38,243 nucleotides of DNA from a virus (lineage: Duplodnaviria; Heunggongvirae; Uroviricota; Caudoviricetes), in IMG/VR virus record IMGVR_UViG_2721755660_000008, positions 1 through 38,243 of that record; one strand, written 5' to 3'. Every line of letters starts with the position of its first letter. Position 1 is the first letter of the stretch. The translations under genes were made by a program, and so were the position numbers. The notes under the pieces were generated by a model that was not told the origin of the DNA, made no database searches, and was given only the letters and a program-made list of their open reading frames with translations. This document shows positions 1-38,243 of this stretch, piece after piece.

Positions 1-2133
1 TCACTTAAAAGGAGTGTTTATCCTAACAACTCTCAAATAAACATCTCTTATATTTTCACCTCCATTTGGCCTTAAAATTGTTGCTGAAATAACTCCACTT
101 TGTGAAGCAGATACTGTTGCGTTATATACTAATGAACTATTGAATTGTTGAGCGTGTATTTGCCTTGATGTTGTTTCAATTTGCTCTCCGGCTCTCATCA
201 TAACTGCATGTTCTGAAAAACACCCGCCAGCACCAGTTGTTGTTGTCGCTGTAACCTCAACTCTATAGAAATACATAGCAAGCACACCTGAGTTTACTGA
301 ATTATTTGGAACTGGCACTTGTACGGTTATTGAGACTGGGCCGCTATCAACTCCTGTTGTCTGAGCACACCAGCCAATTTCACCATTCTGAGATATTAAT
401 GTGAATATGCATCGATCTTTTGTCCCAGCGTTTACCTGATACGTTGTTGTATAGGTGGCGCCATAGAAATGCTCTACGGTTATGGCAGTACCGAAGTTCT
501 CTCCCCAACCAGTCCATGAAGGCCAGATACTGGCATTGCTTTTAATGGCTACGCCATTATTGATGCACTTCAGAGACACTTTCCCATTATTACAAGAACT
601 CAAGAGCACAGGGACTCCAGGAATGCTGTTCCTTAGTGTTATCTCAACATCCGGCTGCTCTGCGGTTACCAACATTAATGGCTCGACTGTTCTTGGAACC
701 GTATTGAGCGGTATGTTAATCTCCATGTCACGCACTCGCGTCCTTGTACCGCCACATAGAAATGCGCACACACCACCTACATTAGCAGGAAGATAAAGTC
801 GAACACCTTCAAAAGACAAATCAAAAACATCCGATTGAGAATTTGTGATGATTTGAATAAGGTGTATAGGGCCGTTAACATTTTCTCCCGTAAAATTACT
901 CTTACTGGTGATGTTTCTGTAAATACCACCTGTTCCTGATACTTTTGCCGCAAACACTGGTGTGTCCGTCATGGTGCAAACCAAACCATCAACAACACAC
1001 CCTGTTGACCCCGTGAGTTGTAAAGTTACATTGCAGCCGCCGTATCTGTTAGATAGAGGTTCTCCGAACTCACCACAGTTTGTTATAGAACCACTAGTGT
1101 TATTGATATACATCAGGTGTGACGGACCATACGCACCGAAACTTTCGTCATGCCGCAATGTCCCATACACGTACTCAATATTGCATCCTGCAAAGTTGTT
1201 AATAAGTGCGCATGAATAGTGTGTACAATAGATGTTAGAGAATAGAGAGCCTCTAAAATCACCCTCATAACCAGAAACAAGGAAGTCGTAGCGATTATCA
1301 CTGGTTTCACCGACTGCCATCGCATTAATCAATTTGAAACGATACGCGTTTGAATTCATCCCGATAAAGCCACAGAACGCAGCTTCCCACGGGCGAGTAA
1401 TTCCATAGCGAGTGGTTGTTGTGCCCCCCAAAGGATAGCCGCCTTTATAGACAGCATTAAATCCCATAATGGTCACATCAGGATTCCTGTTCATGAAGAC
1501 CAGAAATCCAGTTTTCTCATGAGTTATTTTAGCACCGTTAAAATCAATATATGCACCAGCGGGAGGAGTGATGACATTTTCCTCATTCATCACCATACGA
1601 TATGTGGAACCTCTCTTCATGAGGCATCTTCCAGTCATAATAGCATTAGTCACCGCCACTGTATCATCAGCTACACCATCTCCAATTGCTCCATATTGCT
1701 CTGGCGTTGCCCAATATGACAAACTATCCGCTACTGTACCAGCCAAGTATCCAATTTTAGTTGCACCATCTTCTTCAGACAGCTCACTTCGAAATTGATC
1801 AGGGTCATACTTCAGCACATTTGGGAATTTGAACTGCTGTGCACCATACGCATCATAAACAGCCATAGAATGGCCTTGCTCAGTTACGAATTTGGCAATC
1901 TGTCCGTTATATACAGGGTAACCAGCGGCGTTAATGATGATTGGTTGCGAAACGGGAACATGAGAGCCGTCTTCGTTCTCTACATAAACCTGAATCTGGT
2001 TTTCTGGATTTACCGGGTCAGTGTCAATTTTACCGATATAAATTTTGCCATTGGCTACGGCTTTAAAAGAACGAGCCATAGTGAAGAGTTGCGAAGGCAT
2101 GCTAACTACAACATTGGCTGTAATGTCTGTCAT
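1..2133 (-). CDS. Tailspike protein: P22 gp9-type N-terminal head-binding domain plus a different beta-helix (pectate-lyase-like) receptor-binding domain
   Basis: ORF 1..2169; N-terminus [11 protein letters not shown]...[10 protein letters not shown] matches P22 tailspike head-binding domain; start placed at Met13 (2133) with GGAG RBS upstream; motif [12 protein letters not shown] typical of beta-helix depolymerases. Confidence 0.9.
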
Positions 2134-2189
2134 TTGATTTGCTCCAGATACAAGAAATCGCCGCAGCATGGCTACGGTGAATTTTGGGC

Positions 2190-2214
2190 ATAAAAAAACC
2201 CAGCCGAAGCTGGG
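2190..2214 (-). terminator. Intrinsic terminator between ant-like gene and tailspike
   Basis: Minus-strand hairpin CCCAGC-ttcg-GCTGGG followed by TTTTTTTA. Confidence 0.55.
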
Positions 2215-2233
2215 TCGTTGCGTTGGTTATCTG

Positions 2234-3163
2234 TCAGTAGTTATGTACTGAAGGAGGTAATTCTTTATTCTTAAGTCTCATCCATGCGGAAAGATTCGCT
2301 GGTCCGTCTGGCTCATTAATATCAACATCTCGTGTGTGGTTTATTAAAACGTCTCTCGCCATTCCGATAACATACGAGAATTCATTACCGTAGTCGTAGC
2401 ATCTGCCGGAATAGTTCGATTGAATTTGTTTTAATGCCGGATACAGTTCGCGGAATAATGCCTGTGAGCGGTTGGCATAATCCCATAGCCATACAAGGCT
2501 GTTTGCTTCTTTTGCAGAAAGCTCGTCGGTTTTCTTCTCTTGTTTGCCGATGAACTCGCCTTCAAGTGGAACTCGAGCTGCAAGTGACAGTGCTTCGGCA
2601 AACTGCTCCTCACTGATTTCTTTGTATGAACACCCAAAATGAGATTTCAGTGACGACCACATGGTGATCATCGCCTTAGCCTGTTTTTCCTTTGGCAGAG
2701 ACTGACCGCGACTCATGACGAGTTGTTTAATGGCTTCCTGCTGTTCAGTGGTGATTTTACCCGGCAACGCCTTTTTAGCTTTGCGTGGGTTAACTACATG
2801 GCCTTTAGTCCAGTACTCGTATAGCACATCGTCACACTCTTCCTGATACTGGATTACCTTGTCGCGGATTTCAGGGCGGACTTTGTTTGGACTGATGGTT
2901 TGCAGCCAGCCAGCAAGTTTGCGAAGTGCCAAACAAATAATCTCACGGCACTGTTCATCACCAGGAAGCTGCATTGTGATTTTCACAATGGAGGTTTTAA
3001 ACCGTTGCTTTATTTTCGTAAACTGTGAAGCCCAATCCATACCCATACCTTCAACGATAGGTTTCATTGGGGTGTACGGCTCACCGTTGTGATTGACGAC
3101 ATAAAGCTCTGCGCCGTGGAATGGCACGTTGATAGTAGATACTGCTGTTGCTATACTTTTCAT
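2234..3163 (-). CDS. ant: Putative antirepressor (Ant-like)
   Basis: 309-aa ORF immediately downstream of an Arc-like RHH gene in the same orientation (P22 immI arrangement arc-ant-gene 9); N-terminal region resembles phage antirepressor N-domains; GAGGAA RBS. Confidence 0.5.
   Translation of the reverse strand: MKSIATAVSTINVPFHGAELYVVNHNGEPYTPMKPIVEGMGMDWASQFTKIKQRFKTSIVKITMQLPGDEQCREIICLALRKLAGWLQTISPNKVRPEIRDKVIQYQEECDDVLYEYWTKGHVVNPRKAKKALPGKITTEQQEAIKQLVMSRGQSLPKEKQAKAMITMWSSLKSHFGCSYKEISEEQFAEALSLAARVPLEGEFIGKQEKKTDELSAKEANSLVWLWDYANRSQALFRELYPALKQIQSNYSGRCYDYGNEFSYVIGMARDVLINHTRDVDINEPDGPANLSAWMRLKNKELPPSVHNY
3129..3157 (+). promoter_or_regulatory. Putative Psar-like promoter inside the 5' end of ant, firing antisense to ant
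   Basis: TTGATA-17 bp-TATACT on plus strand; predicted start about 3163-3165, directly opposite ant start codon and RBS. Confidence 0.45.
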
Positions 3164-3480: not shown

Positions 3481-3732
3481 ATGTCTGATCGTAAGTACAA
3501 AAACCCTCAAGTGAATCTGAGGCTTCCTGTAGAGATAAAGGAACGTCTTATTGAACTGGCTGAGGCTAATTCTCGTTCATTAAATGCTGAGATGGTCGCA
3601 GCACTTGAAGCATGGACCGAAAAAAACAAACACATTCAAGCACTAGATCTTGCAACTATAGCATCGCGACTGATAGAGCTTGAGCATGATGTTGAGAAGT
3701 TAAAATGTATGCATGGCAATGGTGAAAAATGA
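3481..3732 (+). CDS. mnt: Mnt-like ribbon-helix-helix repressor (83 aa)
   Basis: N-terminus KNPQVNLRLPVEIKERLIELAEANSRSLNAEMVAALE is an Arc/Mnt-type RHH; same length as P22 Mnt; divergent from arc as in P22 immI. Confidence 0.6.
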   Translation: MSDRKYKNPQVNLRLPVEIKERLIELAEANSRSLNAEMVAALEAWTEKNKHIQALDLATIASRLIELEHDVEKLKCMHGNGEK

Positions 3733-4046
3733 AACGTATCGCTATCCTATTGCTCCTGTGTCTCTCGAGCATAGCTAACGCAGAAACAAAATCAGACGAT
3801 AGCAGTTTTGATGAAATACAAGGCCTCATGATAGCTTCTAAAATGGCTGGTATGTGTGGTGCAATCAAACAAATGGCAATATTCCAAGAATCTACAAACA
3901 TGCCAGGTGGGAATGAATTCTTACAGAGATTCCTTACTACAGAGCAAGCAAGGCTCGGGATGACTCCGCAGCAATTTCTTGAAGCATGTCAGAAATCAAT
4001 CTCTATTTATACCACCTATTACAATATGAGCTCTGAGAAAAAATAG
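3729..4046 (+). CDS. Small secreted (periplasmic) protein of unknown function, 105 aa
   Basis: Start overlaps mnt stop (ATGA); Sec-type signal peptide MKRIAILLLLCLSSIANA; AT-rich codons with several ATA. Confidence 0.6.
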   Translation: MKRIAILLLLCLSSIANAETKSDDSSFDEIQGLMIASKMAGMCGAIKQMAIFQESTNMPGGNEFLQRFLTTEQARLGMTPQQFLEACQKSISIYTTYYNMSSEKK

Positions 4047-4625: not shown

Positions 4626-5045
4626 TTAATCTTGCTTCGTAGAAGGTATAAGAGATGCATTTGCCTCTTTTGGCTTCAATGTATACATCCCACCATTAAA
4701 TGGATCAACAGCAAGCCAACCGATTAACCCACCAAACACAAGGTTTCCACCAATATACCAACCATTAGCATTGGCTTTGATTGGCAGGGTAACTGGTTCG
4801 TACCCATCCTTTTCCATAGTGATCTGGTAGCTCTTTTTGCCAAAATAACTACCATCTGACTTGGCAAGAGTTACTCCTTGTGGAGTCTTGCCTTGCGCAA
4901 CAATCACGCCTGATTCATCTTTTACCTTAAAGCTCGCACCGGAAGGGTTGCTGTTCACTTGCACAAGTTGCGTTTCATCACCAACAATAGTTGCGCACCC
5001 AGATAACATGATAGCGCCAGCAACGACGCTAATAATCCTCTTCAT
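4626..5045 (-). CDS. Lipoprotein of unknown function (possible superinfection exclusion moron)
   Basis: ORF 4626..5057; signal peptide with lipobox LSGC (MKRIISVVAGAIMLSGC); start placed at second Met (5045); located between gp16-like gene and immI region where P22 carries sieA. Confidence 0.65.
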   Translation of the reverse strand: MKRIISVVAGAIMLSGCATIVGDETQLVQVNSNPSGASFKVKDESGVIVAQGKTPQGVTLAKSDGSYFGKKSYQITMEKDGYEPVTLPIKANANGWYIGGNLVFGGLIGWLAVDPFNGGMYTLKPKEANASLIPSTKQD

Positions 5046-5140
5046 ATCAATTTCCATATCTAAAAAACCGGAAACATCCTAATGACAAACCATTCAAATG
5101 TGAAGCACGAGATAAGATCAATCCATCCGTGGACGACTAA

Positions 5141-7309
5141 TTACTCCTGTGTCATTCCGCTTAGCGATGCCACAATCCCAGCCCTCGACAAACGCTGGAA
5201 CTCTTCGTTTCCTAGTGCATCGCGAATTGCTTTTACGGCGGCCTTATTTGCCATAAATCTGCGTTCCGCCGCCGCTAATGCGCCATCACTTGCCCCAACT
5301 TTAACTGCCTTTGTCGCCTCTTGAACAGCCTTTTCAATAGCGTAACGACCACTTCTGGTTGCGGATAATTTCGCTATCGATCCTTTTGCTATTGCATCAA
5401 TTGCTCCACCTGCAGCGCCACCCACTATTGCTCCAATAACACCTCCTCCAGAGAACCCTGCGATAGCGCCAGCGGTTGGAAAAGCGCCAGACAATACGCT
5501 CTCTAAAACTGGATGAAGGCCATTCTCAAGAGTGCTAATGGCTGGCATAGAGCGCCCTGTTTGTTCAACATATCGAAGTGGCTTTGTTGCTGCTCTTGCA
5601 AGTTCTCCAAACCCCCTAGCAATCCTACCAAGCTCTGGAGAATATCGACTAATTGCCTTCACGTTTTGTGGGGTAAGAATAGTCGCGATATGCTTAATTC
5701 CAGCCTCTTCAGACTTACCTCCTCGTACCCCTTGCGATACCGCATCTTGTAATATTGATGCAATTGCTGGCGCGCGTTCCGACTCAGGTAGGGCGCTTAT
5801 TATTTTATGGAACTGACCTGTTCCACTTTTTGCTGAACCCTGCAACGCCTTAGAGCCATTAGTTACCAACTGATCAGTTGCAAGGTCTCTACCAAACGCT
5901 GCTTCAGCCTGTTCTTGTGCTGTAAATCTTGCTTTTGATAGATCATTAGCTTTTTGCCAGTCATCAAGAAAACCGCCATTTTGAGCCATTATGCGCATAT
6001 CTTCCGTTGCTGCATCACGAAGCTCAGCCATGCGCCTTGCCGTATTTGCCTCACCAGACCTTATATACTTCTGCTCTGCGTCAGCAAGTTTACTTCGCCA
6101 TGCCTTCATGGCATCAAACGTGATTCCTTTTTTACCAGTTTTAGCATAAGCAGATGCGAATTGTTTCATCTCAGGAGTTAGCGGCATGCCAGCCAAAATA
6201 TCACCCTGAATTGTAGCGTTCAGGTTTGACATTCTGGCCTTTGCGTCAGGCATCGTGGAGCGGACGCTATCCCATGCGGCCTTTTCTGAATTTTTCATTT
6301 TATCAATACTTGCCAAAACCCTTTGTTTTATGGCTGCACTTTTTTCTGATGCAGTTCCTGCTTCAGCCCCAAACTCATCCAATGCTGAGTTAAATTTCGA
6401 CTCTATTTCACTGAATGCTTTGGTGTGTGCATCCTGTGTAATTCCGGGCTTTGACGCCAGAATCCCCTCCGCCTGAGCAAGACCACGACTACCTGATCTC
6501 ATGCCAGGAGTTAATGCGTTGATATCTATTCCAGCAGTATCTGCTGCTTTTGCTATTTCGTCTGACACATTAGCTGACTGTCTGGCAATAATCTCTCTTC
6601 CTGTACCAGACTTTGCCATTTTCGAAACATCAGCAGCGGAATTTATTGCCCCGCCACCAAGAACTTGAGGTGATTTAGAGGTTAAGATCCTTCCAGCCCC
6701 AGAAAGTATCCCCTGAGCACCAATATTGATACCACCGTTAATGGCAGCATTTTGTGCAAAGTCGCCCTCCTGATTTGCAGCATCAGCAAGAGAACCGGCA
6801 ATCATGTTTCCTGCGGAACCGATGTCTCCTGCTAGCTTTGCTGGCGCTCCAGCAGCTTTTGCTGCTGTGCCAATTGGCAGGAGATACCCACCAATTGTTT
6901 CACCGGCTTGCGCGTAAGGGTCTGTCGGTCGCTCGACAGGGCGATAAACATCATCCAAAACCTTGGGGCCGCCAAGCCCCTGGCTGATTGCATTAATCAG
7001 ACTTGCGCCACCCTGCAATACGTCAAATGGTATGTTTACCAGACCACGACCAGCCTGTTCTGCAATTTGCCCTGCACTTTGACCACCAGTGAGCCAATCG
7101 CCAGCTTGTTGCATCAATGATGGTTCTTCTTTCTGCTGCTGAGGTGGAGGGTATGCTGCATAAAACTGATCTCTTGCTTCAGCCCATTTGTCACCAGCCT
7201 TAGGGGCAACAACCTCATCAAAATATTGCGCTTGAGCCTGTGCTTTCTGTTCTTCAGTTAACGCCTGATACTGTGGAGAAGCGATAACATCTTTCCATGC
7301 TTTAGCCAT
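5141..7309 (-). CDS. DNA ejection/injection protein (P22 gp16-like), 722 aa
   Basis: Position after gp20 homologue; Gly/Ala-rich large protein; start overlaps gp20 stop (TAATG). Confidence 0.8.
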
Positions 7310-32179: not shown

Positions 32180-33148
32180 ATGAGTGAAGTAACAGATTTA
32201 GTTGTTATTGAAAAAGCAAATGCAATGACTGTATTTCAGTCTGCCGACCAGATTGAAGAAATCCTTCAAAAGGTTGAACGCGAAGTTATGTCCTTTGTGC
32301 CTGATATCACAACGGCAAAGGGCAGAAAGGAGATCGCTTCTCTGGCGTATAAAGTTGCGCAGACGAAAACATATCTCGATGGTCTTGGCAAAGACCTTGT
32401 TGCTGAACTGAAGGAAATTCCAAAGCTAATTGATGCCAACCGCAAGACAGTGCGTGATCGCCTTGATGAGCTGAAAGCCAAGGCACGCCAGCCTCTTACT
32501 GATTATGAGGAAGAACAGGCGCGGATTAAAGCTGAAGAAGAAGCTAAGGCAGCAGCTGAAGCTCTCGCAAAGCAAATTGAGTCTGACCATGAAATAGCGA
32601 TTTTGATGGATCGCGAATTTGACCGCCAAAGAGAAGAGGCAAGACTCAAAGCGGAGCAGGAAAAGCGAGAGCATGAAGAACGCTTAAAAAGAGAAGCTGA
32701 AGAGAAAGCCAGAGCAGAAGCCGAAGCAAAGGCAAAAGCCGAAATTGAAGCAGCAGCAAGGCGAGAAGCAGAAGCTAAGGCCGCAGCGGAACGTGCAGAG
32801 CGTGAACGCATTGAAGCAGAGCAACGAGCACAGCGCGAAGCAAAAGAGGCAGCAGAACGAGCTGAAAGAGAAAAGCAGGCGGCAATTGAAGCAGAACGCC
32901 GAAAAGCACAGGAGGAGGCTGAACGAATCCGGCGCGAGGCTGAAGCAAAAGAGCAAGCCAGAATAGCAGAAGAAAAAAGAATCAAGGAAGAAGAAGAGCG
33001 TAGAGCAAAGGATAAAGCTCACCGGAAAGAAGTAAATAACAAAATACTTGCTGACCTTATCAAGGTTGGTGCATCAGAAGATGTTGCTAAAAATATCATA
33101 ACAGCCATCGTAAAAGGCGAAGTATTCGCAACAAAAATAACCTACTAA
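32180..33148 (+). CDS. Hypothetical protein with ~150-residue E/R/K/A-rich coiled-coil repeat region, 322 aa
   Basis: GGAGG RBS; low-complexity central region (AEAKAKAEIEAAARREAEAKAAAERAERERIEAEQRAQ...). Confidence 0.7.
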   Translation: MSEVTDLVVIEKANAMTVFQSADQIEEILQKVEREVMSFVPDITTAKGRKEIASLAYKVAQTKTYLDGLGKDLVAELKEIPKLIDANRKTVRDRLDELKAKARQPLTDYEEEQARIKAEEEAKAAAEALAKQIESDHEIAILMDREFDRQREEARLKAEQEKREHEERLKREAEEKARAEAEAKAKAEIEAAARREAEAKAAAERAERERIEAEQRAQREAKEAAERAEREKQAAIEAERRKAQEEAERIRREAEAKEQARIAEEKRIKEEEERRAKDKAHRKEVNNKILADLIKVGASEDVAKNIITAIVKGEVFATKITY

Positions 33149-35398: not shown

Positions 35399-35975
35399 GC
35401 AAGATTGACTATCAGGCACTGCGTGCTAAGGCAGAGAAAGCAACGTGTGGTGTGTGGTCGCTCGAATATGGAGAGGGCCGATTTGATGGTGATGATGCAC
35501 TAATTCATCGCGAGGCTGCTGGATATATTCCTATTTGCAGAATTGAAGGAGCGCATCCAGAAAGCGGTTTCGATGAAGATTTCCAAATGGAACAGCAGGC
35601 CAATGCTGAATTCATCGCCGCAGCCAGTCCAGTTACCGTGCTGGCATTGTTGGATGAACGGAAAGAAACCAGCAATACATCAAATGCCGCGACCAGGAGA
35701 ACGAGGATATTGCGCTAACGGTAGGGAAGCTGAGAGTTGAGCTGGAAGCAGCAAAATCAAAACTCAACGAGCAGCGTGAATATTACGAGGGAGTAATCGC
35801 GGATGGAAGTAAGCGCATTGCTGAACTGGAAGCGCGGGAAATACTGCTCCCGGAACGTAGCAGTATGCTTCATCGAACAGATTTTCACGAGGATTACCAA
35901 ACGGTAATGGCATACAAAGTTTCTGAGGTCATCGCTGCAATCCGCGCCGCTGGCATTCGCATCAAAGGAGAGTGA
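35395..35975 (+). pseudogene. Ead/Ea22-like gene split between two reading frames (N-terminal 107 codons in one frame to 35718, coiled-coil C-terminal part in the -1 frame to 35975)
   Basis: GTG start with AAGGAGG RBS; frame A ends ...LALLDERKETSNTSNAATRRTRILR*; the -1 frame is open from about 35660 and encodes ...ENEDIALTVGKLRVELEAAKSKLNEQREYYEGVIADGSKRIAELEAR... with no start codon. Confidence 0.4.
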
Positions 35976-35976
35976 G

Positions 35977-36168
35977 ATGTACGGACAAATATCAATCGTT
36001 CGACCAGGAGCATGTGACGATCGCGAAATACGAATAATTATTCGTCTGGCAATGGGGAAAACAATAACTGCTCTCATTACCCCAGAAAATCTCGCATTAG
36101 CATTAACCGGAAAGTCAGACCAGCCAGTAGAGCTAAAGCTGCGAAATGTTGAGATTAAGGTGAAATAG
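35977..36168 (+). CDS. Hypothetical protein, 63 aa
   Basis: ORF with GGAGAG RBS directly after the Ea22-like coding region. Confidence 0.5.
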   Translation: MYGQISIVRPGACDDREIRIIIRLAMGKTITALITPENLALALTGKSDQPVELKLRNVEIKVK

Positions 36169-36170
36169 CT

Positions 36171-36665
36171 ATGACCACTATTACCAAAGAACGTATTGAA
36201 TTGTTCATTAAAAATCCGCTTGAAAACGGGCTTACTCGTGGCGAACAAATGGAACTGGCACGAATTGCTCTGGCATCGCTGGAAGCAGAACCGGTGGCGT
36301 GGAAGGTAACATTCACGCAAATTGATCGTGAATATAACACGTTCACTGGTATGTATTCTGACAAAGCAGAAGTCGAACGGTGGGTGCGGCTGCATAAAGC
36401 ATGTAATTTTCGGGCAGATATAACACCGCTTTATACCGCCAAGCCAGTGCCGGTAACTCCGGATAGTTGGATAAGCTGTAGTGAGCGAATGCCGAAAGGG
36501 TATGCTGATGTGTTAGTGACCGACGGAGAGCATGTCGAGGTTAAATGGTGGGATGAATCTGGGTATTGGAATAGTTGGACGGAACTTAACTCAGATATCT
36601 TTGCCGATGAAATAACTCACTGGATGCCGCTACCAGAACCGCCGCAGGAGGTTAAACGTGGCTAA
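36171..36665 (+). CDS. DUF551-domain protein (ea-region)
   Basis: 164 aa; C-terminal W-rich region DSWISCSERMPKGYADVLVTDGEHVEVKWWDESGYWNSW typical of DUF551. Confidence 0.7.
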   Translation: MTTITKERIELFIKNPLENGLTRGEQMELARIALASLEAEPVAWKVTFTQIDREYNTFTGMYSDKAEVERWVRLHKACNFRADITPLYTAKPVPVTPDSWISCSERMPKGYADVLVTDGEHVEVKWWDESGYWNSWTELNSDIFADEITHWMPLPEPPQEVKRG

Positions 36666-36973: not shown

Positions 36974-37192
36974 ATGTACTTGACACTTCAGGAGTGGAAC
37001 GCACGCCAGCGACGCCCAAGAAGCCTTGAAACAGTTCGTCGATGGGTGCGCGAATGCAGGATATTCCCTCCTCCGGTTAAGGATGGAAGAGAGTATCTGT
37101 TCCACGAATCAGCGGTAAAGGTTGACTTAAATCGACCAGTAACAGGTAGCCTTTTGAAGAGGATCAGAAATGGGAAGAAGGCGAAGTCATGA
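36974..37192 (+). CDS. xis: Excisionase (lambda Xis-type)
   Basis: 72 aa MYLTLQEWNARQRRPRSLETVRRWVRECRIFPPPVKDGREYLFHESAVKVDL, matches lambda Xis as recalled. Confidence 0.9.
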   Translation: MYLTLQEWNARQRRPRSLETVRRWVRECRIFPPPVKDGREYLFHESAVKVDLNRPVTGSLLKRIRNGKKAKS

Positions 37193-38243
37193 GCGCCGGG
37201 ATTTACCCCCTAACCTTTATATAAGAAACAATGGATATTACTGCTACAGGGACCCAAGGACGGGTAAAGAGTTCGGATTAGGCAGAGACAGAAGGATAGC
37301 AGTTTCAGAGGCTATTCAGGCCAATATTGAGTTGCTTTCCGAGAACAGGCGTGAGTCACTGATAGACAGAATTAAAGGCGCTGACGCAATCACTCTTCAT
37401 GCGTGGCTTGACCGATATGAAACAATCCTCAGCGAGAGGGGTATCAGACCGAAAACTCTACTCGACTACGCCAGCAAAATCAGGGCAATCCGAAGAAAAT
37501 TGCCGGACAAACCGCTCACTGACATATCAACGAAAGAAGTGGCAGCAATGCTAAACACCTACGTAGCAGAAGGTAAAGCAGCTTCCGCAAAATTAATCAG
37601 GTCAACCCTTGTTGACGTTTTTCGTGAGGCAATAGCCGAGGGGCATGTGGAAACGAATCCGGTAACAGCAACCCGCACAGCAAAGTCAGAAGTAAGGCGC
37701 TCAAGGCTGACAGCTAATGAATATGTCGCGATTTACCATGCAGCCGAACCTCTCCCAACTTGGCTGAGGCTGGCAATGGATTTGGCTGTCGTTACAGGGC
37801 AGAGAGTCGGCGATTTGTGCAGAATGAAATGGTCAGACATAAACGACAACCATCTTCACATTGAACAGAGCAAAACAGGGGCTAAACTCGCCATTCCGCT
37901 GACGCTAACGATTGACGCGCTCAATATCTCATTGGCTGATACACTACAGAAATGCAGGGAGGCCAGCAGCAGTGAAACTATAATCGCATCAAAGCATCAC
38001 GATCCGCTTTCCCCGAAAACAGTATCGAAGTATTTTACAAAGGCGAGAAATGCATCTGGACTCTCATTTGATGGAAACCCGCCAACATTCCATGAACTGC
38101 GTAGCCTGTCAGCTAGGCTATACCGGAACCAGATTGGCGATAAGTTTGCTCAACGTCTTCTCGGGCATAAATCAGATTCAATGGCGGCACGGTACAGGGA
38201 CAGCCGTGGACGGGAATGGGACAAAATTGAAATCGACAAATGA
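37170..38243 (+). CDS. int: Tyrosine integrase (lambda Int-type)
   Basis: 357 aa MGRRRSHERRDLPPNLYIRNNGYYCYRDPRTGKEFGLGRDRR...; C-terminal catalytic region HELRSLSARLY...LLGHKSDSMAARYRDSRGREWDKIEI; overlaps xis. Confidence 0.95.
   Translation: MGRRRSHERRDLPPNLYIRNNGYYCYRDPRTGKEFGLGRDRRIAVSEAIQANIELLSENRRESLIDRIKGADAITLHAWLDRYETILSERGIRPKTLLDYASKIRAIRRKLPDKPLTDISTKEVAAMLNTYVAEGKAASAKLIRSTLVDVFREAIAEGHVETNPVTATRTAKSEVRRSRLTANEYVAIYHAAEPLPTWLRLAMDLAVVTGQRVGDLCRMKWSDINDNHLHIEQSKTGAKLAIPLTLTIDALNISLADTLQKCREASSSETIIASKHHDPLSPKTVSKYFTKARNASGLSFDGNPPTFHELRSLSARLYRNQIGDKFAQRLLGHKSDSMAARYRDSRGREWDKIEIDK

What the first reader, a model, noticed from the sequence alone, without database searches (positions are those of the whole stretch)
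1..2133. Tailspike with conserved head-binding domain but a different receptor-binding/depolymerase domain
Residues 1-~115 match the P22-type tailspike head-binding domain, while the remaining ~600 residues do not match the P22 or HK620 receptor-binding domains as I recall them and carry a [11 protein letters not shown] motif typical of pectate-lyase-like beta-helices. This predicts a polysaccharide depolymerase of unknown O-antigen or capsule specificity, and thus the host range of the phage.
Basis: partly seen in the sequence, partly recalled or inferred. Interest (0 to 1): 0.45.

Follow-up and report, generated by a model that had tools for sequence, protein, structure and literature searches.

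The report
P22-type tailspike, new O168-linked domain
This is the tailspike gene of a P22-like E. coli prophage: it keeps the standard tail-attachment domain but carries a rare, uncharacterised sugar-cutting beta-helix domain that, from the strains carrying it, most likely targets the O168 O-antigen. It is a useful but unsurprising new member of a well-known modular family.

Summary

The domain belongs to a very small family: 15 clusters at E<1e-30 among 1.84 billion representative proteins. The family is joined to P22-type, T7-type and TSP1/gp66-type N-terminal anchors, on podo- and siphoviruses.

Among 5,426 complete E. coli genomes only two carry it. Both are among the seven genomes with the O168 wzy gene. 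They sit in different prophage backbones at different integration sites, yet the receptor-binding DNA is identical. I therefore predict specificity for the O168 O-antigen, which is closely related to Shigella dysenteriae type 4.

Hydrolase versus lyase chemistry is unresolved. An invariant YGPSH-centred motif marks the likely active site.

Verdict: a new member of a known kind, of modest interest.

The parts
1..2133 (-). Complete tailspike CDS (gene 9 equivalent), 710 aa; stop codon at 1-3, ATG at 2131-2133
   Evidence: ORF list. The same CDS is annotated in OkiPb01715. The exact protein is found on 5 public contigs.
1795..2133 (-). Head-binding (tail-attachment) domain, aa 1-113
   Evidence: Pfam PF09008, E=5.6e-65, positions 1-113 of 113. 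Matches Sf6 and P22 structures. About 88-95% nt identity to HK620, Sf6, CUS-3 and other P22-like phages over the first ~340 nt only.
1792..1815 (-). LKYDPDQF linker (aa 107-114), where similarity to other P22-like tailspike genes ends; module junction
   Evidence: Megablast matches stop at query nt 332-345. Coordinates.
1519..1794 (-). Neck plus cap and first rungs of the beta-helix (aa 114-205); shared with other E. coli P22-type tailspikes, so there is a second mosaic junction near aa 205
   Evidence: P0007 is 98-100% identical up to aa ~200 and 20-68% afterwards. PHROG profiles match only up to aa 185-206.
1660..1692 (-). [11 protein letters not shown] cap motif (aa 148-158)
   Evidence: Located. 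This is the only part that matches PDB beta-helix enzymes by profile and AlgE4 by hhalign.
487..1518 (-). Distinctive right-handed beta-helix body (aa ~206-549), the predicted glycan-binding and glycan-cleaving domain
1108..1164 (-). Most conserved motif of the family, [19 protein letters not shown] (aa 324-342). Y335, G336, P337, H339 and Y342 are invariant in 21 sequences down to 18% identity. Candidate active-site loop.
   Evidence: Alignments A1, A3 and A4. Coordinates.
4..486 (-). C-terminal beta-sandwich domain (aa ~550-710); the most divergent part of the family
   Evidence: Long antiparallel strands in the model. Identity to homologues is lowest in aa 550-700. There is a small Foldseek match to the T4 gp9 C-terminal domain (rank 47), but which query residues it covers was not shown.
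2142..2145 (-). Shine-Dalgarno GGAG, 8 nt upstream of the ATG
   Evidence: Sequence read.
2197..2216 (-). Intrinsic terminator stem-loop (T-tract runs on to 2192) between ant and the tailspike gene
   Evidence: Terminator scan; sequence.

Best explanation
Window 1-2133 (minus strand) is the tailspike gene of a P22-like temperate podovirus integrated in E. coli. The protein is modular.

Residues 1-113 are the conserved head-binding domain that plugs the spike into the tail machine. This part is shown.

Residues ~116-205 are a neck and beta-helix cap shared with other E. coli P22-type spikes. This part is shown.

Residues ~206-710 are a beta-helix body plus a C-terminal beta-sandwich. They belong to a small, uncharacterised receptor-binding family that has been exchanged horizontally between podoviruses and siphoviruses. 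This part is shown.

By analogy with P22, Sf6 and HK620 spikes, the protein should form a homotrimer. It would bind the host's surface polysaccharide along the helix and cleave it endolytically, so that the virion can work its way down to the outer membrane. This is inferred.

The substrate is most likely the E. coli O168 O-antigen, which is closely related to the S. dysenteriae type 4 O-antigen. This is inferred from the lysogen serotype.

The active site is probably the stack of conserved residues on successive rungs: D283, H305/Y306, R327/H328, Y335/H339/Y342, E355, Q372 and K397. This is inferred from conservation and the ~22-residue spacing.

Whether cleavage is hydrolytic or by beta-elimination is not resolved.
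For: Domain identity: PF09008 E=5.6e-65; Sf6 and P22 structures match aa 1-121.

Gene context is that of P22 gene 9. It lies after the ant/arc/mnt immunity region and the ejection proteins, at the prophage end; the window's other end is a lambda-type integrase.

Rarity: the word-indexed search of 5.8 billion proteins found only 20 full-length relatives. Exhaustive HMMER over 1.84 billion representatives found 15 at E<1e-30.

Module exchange: relatives carry PF09008, PF18668 or PF03906 N-termini. They sit on an HC6/Sf11-like siphovirus and a Kagunavirus-like siphovirus.

Specificity: only 2 of 5,426 complete E. coli genomes carry the domain. Both are among the 7 genomes with O168 wzy. The chance of that is about 1.4e-6 if the two are independent.

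The two prophages are integrated at different sites, torT versus ybhB/bioA, with different neighbouring genes. The spike genes differ by 57 nt in the first 400 nt but by 0 nt in nt 700-2133. So the same receptor-binding module sits in two different phages of O168 hosts.

Inferring tailspike specificity from prophage host serogroup is a published approach (PMC10408124).
Against: No enzymatic or binding data exist. Only two complete carrier genomes could be serotyped, and they may be related strains (both bovine-associated). A lineage-specific capsule or another glycan is therefore not excluded. The serotypes of the other carriers (GCA_047837325.1 and three SRA assemblies) could not be determined with these tools. 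Five other O168 genomes lack the gene. The trimeric state and the active-site geometry were not modelled. Fold matches do not discriminate between hydrolases and lyases.
Confidence: 0.65

Rival explanations
1. The spike is a genuine depolymerase, but its substrate is not the O168 O-antigen. It would instead be another surface glycan shared by the carrier strains, such as a K-antigen or group 4 capsule variant, colanic acid, or enterobacterial common antigen.
For: Some P22-like phages carry capsule-specific spikes, for example the CUS-3 endosialidase (annotation). The best PHROG profile is labelled 'colanic acid degradation'. The two serotyped carriers might belong to one lineage and share more than their O-antigen.
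Against: The PHROG match covers only residues 1-185, which is the shared anchor and cap, not the specificity-bearing body. Colanic acid and ECA are nearly universal in E. coli, whereas this domain occurs in only 2 of 5,426 genomes, and both are O168. Most characterised P22-like spikes target O-antigen (established knowledge; PMC10408124).
Confidence: 0.2
2. The domain is a polysaccharide lyase rather than a glycoside hydrolase. It would cleave next to a uronic acid in the O-unit by beta-elimination, using the invariant Tyr/His/Arg cluster. This is a mechanistic sub-hypothesis compatible with the main explanation.
Confidence: 0.35
3. The spike only binds its receptor and has no catalytic activity, or the gene is a decaying remnant in a defective prophage.
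For: No catalytic residues have been demonstrated. Prophage genes can decay.
Against: The ORF is intact. It differs from two other lysogens at only 3 and 12 residues. The exact protein recurs on 5 public contigs. The window carries a full set of P22-like virion, lysis, replication and integration genes. A sharply conserved polar motif on the helix face across 21 sequences down to 18% identity argues for an active site.
Confidence: 0.07
4. The receptor-binding domain is already a characterised tailspike of known specificity.
For: None found.
Against: No match beyond the anchor and cap in PDB, INPHARED phage genomes by DNA or tblastn, PHROGs or NCBIfam. In BFVD the only relative is an unnamed 30%-identical metagenomic phage protein. 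No paper in the searchable library links O168 to a tailspike.
Confidence: 0.03

Closest known systems
Sf6 gp14, HK620 gp9 and P22 gp9 tailspikes (P22-like podoviruses; endorhamnosidases and an endo-N-acetylglucosaminidase)
   Same: The N-terminal head-binding domain is nearly identical: almost residue-for-residue with Sf6 over aa 1-121 and closely similar to P22 over aa 1-119. The gene position in the prophage is the same. The overall plan is the same: anchor, neck, right-handed beta-helix, C-terminal domain. HK620 has the highest TM-score among the listed matches (0.48).
   Different: Beyond the anchor, identity is only 8-12%, with no detectable sequence homology. The catalytic Asp/Glu pairs of those enzymes cannot be mapped onto this protein. 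The predicted substrate (O168) differs.
Uncharacterised E. coli prophage spikes P0002/P0003 (82% identical over the receptor-binding domain) and P0007-P0009 (~49%), plus siphovirus spikes P0004-P0006 (62-76%)
   Same: Same receptor-binding family over its full length, including the YGPSH motif.
   Different: They carry different N-terminal anchors (PF18668, PF03906) or diverge in the C-terminal third (66% identity or less in aa 550-700). Their specificity may differ. None has been characterised.
Coliphage K5A lyase KflA (PDB 2x3h) and AlgE4 mannuronan C5-epimerase A-module (PDB 2pyg)
   Different: Identity is 9-13%. Profile comparison aligns only the cap. There is no evidence that the catalytic residues coincide. 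Hydrolases score nearly as well.
Serogroup-specific tailspike subtypes of E. coli phages (Pas et al. 2023, PMC10408124)
   Same: The same principle applies: conserved anchors, receptor-binding domains swapped across genera (including Lederbergvirus and Kagunavirus), and specificity inferred from the host serogroup.
   Different: That study assigned O2, O8, O16, O18, 4s/O22, O26, O45, O77, O78, O103, O104, O111, O145 and O157. O168 does not appear in its text or its held supplements.

Membership tests
P22-type tailspike (gene 9 family; Pfam PF09008 Head_binding) | N-terminal head-binding domain | tested here: met
   PF09008 E=5.6e-65, 217 bits against a cutoff of 24, full profile. PDB matches to Sf6 and P22.
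P22-type tailspike (gene 9 family; Pfam PF09008 Head_binding) | Gene sits at the end of the virion gene block of a P22-like genome, after the ejection proteins and the ant/arc/mnt immunity region | tested here: met
   ant (P22_AR_N/C) lies at 2234-3163, directly upstream. Gene order in the matching prophage of OkiPb01715 is portal, gp5 capsid, gp4, gp10, needle, DNA transfer proteins, arc, ant, spike.
P22-type tailspike (gene 9 family; Pfam PF09008 Head_binding) | Right-handed parallel beta-helix receptor-binding domain | tested here: met
P22-type tailspike (gene 9 family; Pfam PF09008 Head_binding) | Homotrimer with endoglycosidase activity on the host O-antigen | not testable with these tools
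   Only a monomer was modelled.
P22 / Sf6 / HK620 receptor-binding domain families | Detectable sequence homology of the beta-helix domain | tested here: not met
   phmmer alignments end at aa 119-121. Structural matches show 8-12% identity.
Pectate_lyase_3 (Pfam PF12708) beta-helix depolymerases | Pfam profile match above the gathering threshold | tested here: not met
   PF12708 is not among the hits even at E<=1. Only the cap motif is shared with PF12708-annotated proteins.
Uronate-acting beta-helix lyases/epimerases (K5 lyase KflA; AlgE-type) | Fold similarity | tested here: met
Uronate-acting beta-helix lyases/epimerases (K5 lyase KflA; AlgE-type) | Catalytic motif equivalence (for example AlgE YG(F/I)DPH(D/E)) | tested here: inconclusive
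   hhalign of the family profile against AlgE4 (sequence verified against 2pyg) aligned residues 29-68 only. A structural superposition was not available.
O168-specific receptor-binding protein (proposed) | Carriers have the O168 O-antigen gene cluster | tested here: met
   2 of 2 complete carrier genomes have O168 wzx/wzy, against 7 of 5,426 overall. The sample is small.
O168-specific receptor-binding protein (proposed) | Binding or cleavage of O168 polysaccharide | not testable with these tools
   Needs purified protein and LPS.

The most novel reading that the evidence does not exclude
The ~20-cluster family defined by residues ~206-710 may be a new carbohydrate-active enzyme family. Its members would be beta-helix endo-lyases using a Tyr/His centre (the YGPSH loop plus R327/H328). 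This member would cut the O168 / Shigella dysenteriae type 4 O-antigen at a uronic acid. If so, it would be the first O168/SD4-specific depolymerase and a new catalytic solution on the tailspike scaffold.
Probability: 0.2. Interest if true: 0.5.

Novelty: new member of a known kind. Interest (0 to 1): 0.3.

Why it matters
Tailspikes set the host range of P22-like phages. They are also used as serogroup-specific reagents for detecting pathogens, for engineering tailocins and phages, and for stripping O-antigen.

I found no tailspike for E. coli O168 (a bovine/food-associated serogroup) or for the closely related Shigella dysenteriae type 4 O-antigen in the structures, phage genomes or literature searched. 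A validated one would extend the catalogue of serogroup-specific receptor-binding proteins.

The family is also unusually small and sharply bounded, and it has a clear conserved motif. That makes it a tractable target for defining a possibly new glycan-cleaving active site.

Conceptually, though, it fits the established picture of modular tailspike exchange.

Tried and rejected
**Profile search of PDB.** The search with the receptor-binding-domain alignment found only cap-motif matches.

**hhalign against AlgE4.** This tested whether YGPSH corresponds to the epimerase/lyase motif YGFDPH. Only residues 29-68 aligned, so the idea stays unsupported.

**'Colanic acid degradation' label.** This label on the best PHROG was rejected because that match covers residues 1-185 only.

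**Upstream ATG at 2169.** It was rejected as the start. There is no Shine-Dalgarno box, it lies just after the terminator, and both the family N-terminus and RefSeq use 2133.

**More distant copies in complete E. coli genomes.** A blastn search with 11-base words found none beyond the two carriers.

**O168 repeat-unit structure.** I could not retrieve it. Perepelov 2007, Liu 2008 and the review supplement are not held. Only the title-level relation to S. dysenteriae type 4 and one linkage, alpha-L-Fuc-(1->3)-GlcNAc, could be cited.

**Literature linking O168 to tailspikes.** None was found.

**O-antigen-modifying genes and defence genes.** I checked several accessory ORFs of the window and found none.

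**Strain serotype from papers.** Papers mentioning GB089 did not give its serotype. It was obtained from the wzy search instead.

Full report
**Observation.**
The region holds one long ORF on the minus strand, with ATG at 2133 and the stop at 1-3, encoding 710 aa. The same 2133-nt CDS is annotated by RefSeq in the closest complete genome, E. coli OkiPb01715. The exact protein is encoded on five public contigs.

A longer reading from an ATG at 2169 is unlikely to be used. The protein starts MTDITANVV like P22/Sf6 gp9. A GGAG box lies 8 nt before the 2133 ATG. A strong intrinsic terminator (stem 2197-2216, followed by a T-tract) separates ant from this start.

**Anchor domain.**
Residues 1-113 match Pfam Head_binding (PF09008) end to end, with E=5.6e-65. 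They align almost residue-for-residue with Sf6 gp14 (7sg7, aa 1-121) and closely with P22 gp9 (aa 1-119).

At DNA level, 26 phage genomes match only the first 332-345 nt of the gene, at about 88-95% identity. These include HK620, Sf6, CUS-3, Sf101 and several E. coli podoviruses. In 5,426 complete E. coli genomes, 1,132 carry a match; of the matches listed, all but two cover only the first ~340-380 nt. The similarity ends at the LKYDPDQF linker (aa 107-114), the classical module junction.

**Receptor-binding part.**
Residues 116-710 have no PDB sequence match. No Pfam family passes threshold and NCBIfam gives nothing. PHROG matches stop at aa 185-206. tblastn against 50,697 phage genomes gives only weak hits (30-54% identity) to the first 46-120 residues. 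Those residues contain [11 protein letters not shown] (aa 148-158).

A family profile finds the same short cap in Phi92 gp150, CBA120 TSP1, fungal beta-1,3-glucanases and mannuronan epimerases.

**Predicted structure.**
An AlphaFold2 model built on a 21-sequence alignment is confident (mean pLDDT 87.1, pTM 0.82). It shows regular short strands typical of a right-handed beta-helix up to about aa 530, then a C-terminal beta-sandwich at about aa 550-710.

Foldseek instead ranks phage tailspikes first (AM24, Phi92 gp150, HK620 with TM 0.48, Sf6), with E-values of 1e-9 to 1e-7. In BFVD the only real relative is an unnamed 758-aa metagenomic phage protein at 30% identity.

The fold class is therefore certain, no close structure exists, and the fold ranking cannot decide the chemistry.

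**Family size and modularity.**
The word-indexed search of 5.8 billion proteins returned only 20 full-length relatives (30-100% identity), both with the single sequence and with a profile. Everything else hits only the cap. An exhaustive HMMER profile search of 1.84 billion representatives gave 15 proteins at E<1e-30 and 38 at E<1e-10. The weaker of these mostly match the cap only.

The relatives carry different N-terminal anchors: PF09008 (P22-type), PF18668 (TSP1/gp66-type), PF03906 (T7 fibre-type), or none recognised. Two were placed in context:

- P0004 (76% identical) follows the tape-measure and tail-tip genes of a ~47-kb siphovirus. That phage resembles Escherichia phage HC6, Shigella phage Sf11 and Salmonella phage NX263.
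- P0013 (38% identical) sits on a Kagunavirus-like siphovirus close to K1H.

Identity profiles show mosaic junctions inside the protein:

- P0007 is 98-100% identical to the window protein up to aa ~200, then 20-68%.
- P0002 is 96-100% identical up to aa 200, 76-86% in the helix body, and 66-70% in aa 550-700.

The most conserved stretch across all members is aa ~300-350. The least conserved is the C-terminal domain.

**Candidate active site.**
In a 21-sequence alignment that includes members down to 18% identity, the only invariant polar residues are Y178, Y335, H339 and Y342. The last three lie in the motif GT(L/K)RHxxSxxxYGPSHLxY (aa 324-342). Near-invariant residues are D283, H305, Y306, R327, S331, E355, Q372 and K397.

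Their spacing of roughly 22 residues equals one helix rung, so they should stack along one face. This is an inference, because model coordinates could not be inspected.

**Host specificity.**
Only two of 5,426 complete E. coli genomes carry the distinctive domain. They are OkiPb01715 (bovine faeces) and GB089 (ground beef), at 99.6% and 100% nt identity over the last 1500 nt. No more distant copies appear even with sensitive blastn.

The O-antigen cluster of OkiPb01715 is O168. It contains the O168 wzx and wzy genes, the GDP-fucose pathway genes, four glycosyltransferases and an acyltransferase. The O168 wzy gene occurs in just seven complete genomes, and both carriers are among them. If the two carriers are independent, the chance of this is (7/5426)x(6/5425), about 1.4e-6.

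Several facts support independence:

- The prophages are integrated at different loci: next to torT in OkiPb01715 and next to ybhB/bioA in GB089.
- They have different neighbouring genes.
- GB089 is not among the twelve listed genomes that share at least 66% of the window's first 25 kb.
- The two spike genes differ at 57 positions in the first 400 nt but at none in nt 700-2133.

The same receptor-binding module thus sits in two different P22-like phages that lysogenised O168 strains. Using the lysogen's serogroup to predict tailspike specificity is an established approach (PMC10408124).

O168 is structurally close to the S. dysenteriae type 4 O-antigen (title of Perepelov et al. 2007, cited in PMC7685785). 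It contains alpha-L-Fuc-(1->3)-GlcNAc (PMC10606467). The full repeat unit could not be retrieved. My recollection that it contains glucuronic acid is unverified.

**Caveats on specificity.**
The sample is two genomes, and they could be related strains. Other carriers could not be serotyped. A capsule or other glycan is not excluded.

**Comparison with what is known, and novelty.**
Functionally and architecturally this is a P22-type tailspike. The membership features that could be tested are met: anchor domain, gene position and beta-helix fold. It is not a member of the P22, Sf6 or HK620 receptor-binding families, and it does not reach the Pfam Pectate_lyase_3 threshold.

No characterised protein shares the distinctive domain. 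No publication in the searchable library links a tailspike to O168.

It is therefore a new member, with a new specificity module, of a well-known modular kind. A specialist would not be surprised by it. Its value is practical (an O168/SD4-specific reagent) and enzymological (a small, sharply defined family with a clear candidate catalytic motif).

**Rest of the window.**
It is a complete P22-like prophage running from the spike stop to a lambda-type integrase (37170-38243). It has the usual virion, lysis, Q-like antiterminator, replication, CI-like repressor, recombination (Rad52-like) and SSB genes. It is 98% identical over 90% of its first 25 kb to the OkiPb01715 prophage. No O-antigen-modifying or known defence genes were found in the accessory ORFs examined.

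Noticed in passing
window 1-38243: The window appears to be a whole P22-like prophage, cut exactly from the tailspike stop codon to the stop codon of a lambda-type integrase (37170-38243, +). In related genomes the spike end lies ~500 nt from torT. The first 25 kb are 98% identical over 90% of their length to a prophage of E. coli OkiPb01715.
   Followed up: partly
window 3729-4046 (+): A 105-aa ORF with a signal peptide (MKRIAILLLLCLSSIANA...) sits in the immunity-I region between arc/mnt and the ejection genes. It matches only an unknown-function PHROG (phrog_19844) and may be a secreted or periplasmic moron.
   Followed up: partly
window 4626-5057 (-): A 143-aa ORF lies downstream of the last DNA-transfer (gp16-like) gene. 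In OkiPb01715, RefSeq labels the 139-aa ORF at the same position 'peptidase associated/transthyretin-like domain' protein. Here it has no Pfam hit, and only phrog_6823 (unknown function).
   Followed up: partly
window 35757-36395 (-): A 212-aa ORF runs antisense to the early-left genes near the integrase. It has no hit in Pfam, PHROGs or PADLOC, and it overlaps a DUF551 ORF on the + strand. It could be spurious or an unannotated moron.
   Followed up: partly
window 32180-33148 (+): A 322-aa early-region protein with no Pfam domain matches three unknown-function PHROGs. Two of them each cover one half of it, suggesting a fusion of two modules.
   Followed up: no
L008 (GB089, NZ_CP013663.1) 5430-5888: An HNH endonuclease gene is inserted directly upstream of the GB089 copy of the tailspike, on the opposite strand. 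It is absent from the window and from OkiPb01715. It may be a homing element near the module junction.
   Followed up: no
NZ_CP067426.1 (E. coli 'O22:H8' strain 154), 2168713-2169945: A genome labelled O22:H8 carries a wzy gene 100% identical to O168 wzy, so the serotype label and the genotype disagree.
   Followed up: no
window 1-2133 vs whole window: The tailspike gene has lower G+C (42.9% in both the anchor and the receptor-binding part) than the prophage as a whole (47.2%).
   Followed up: no
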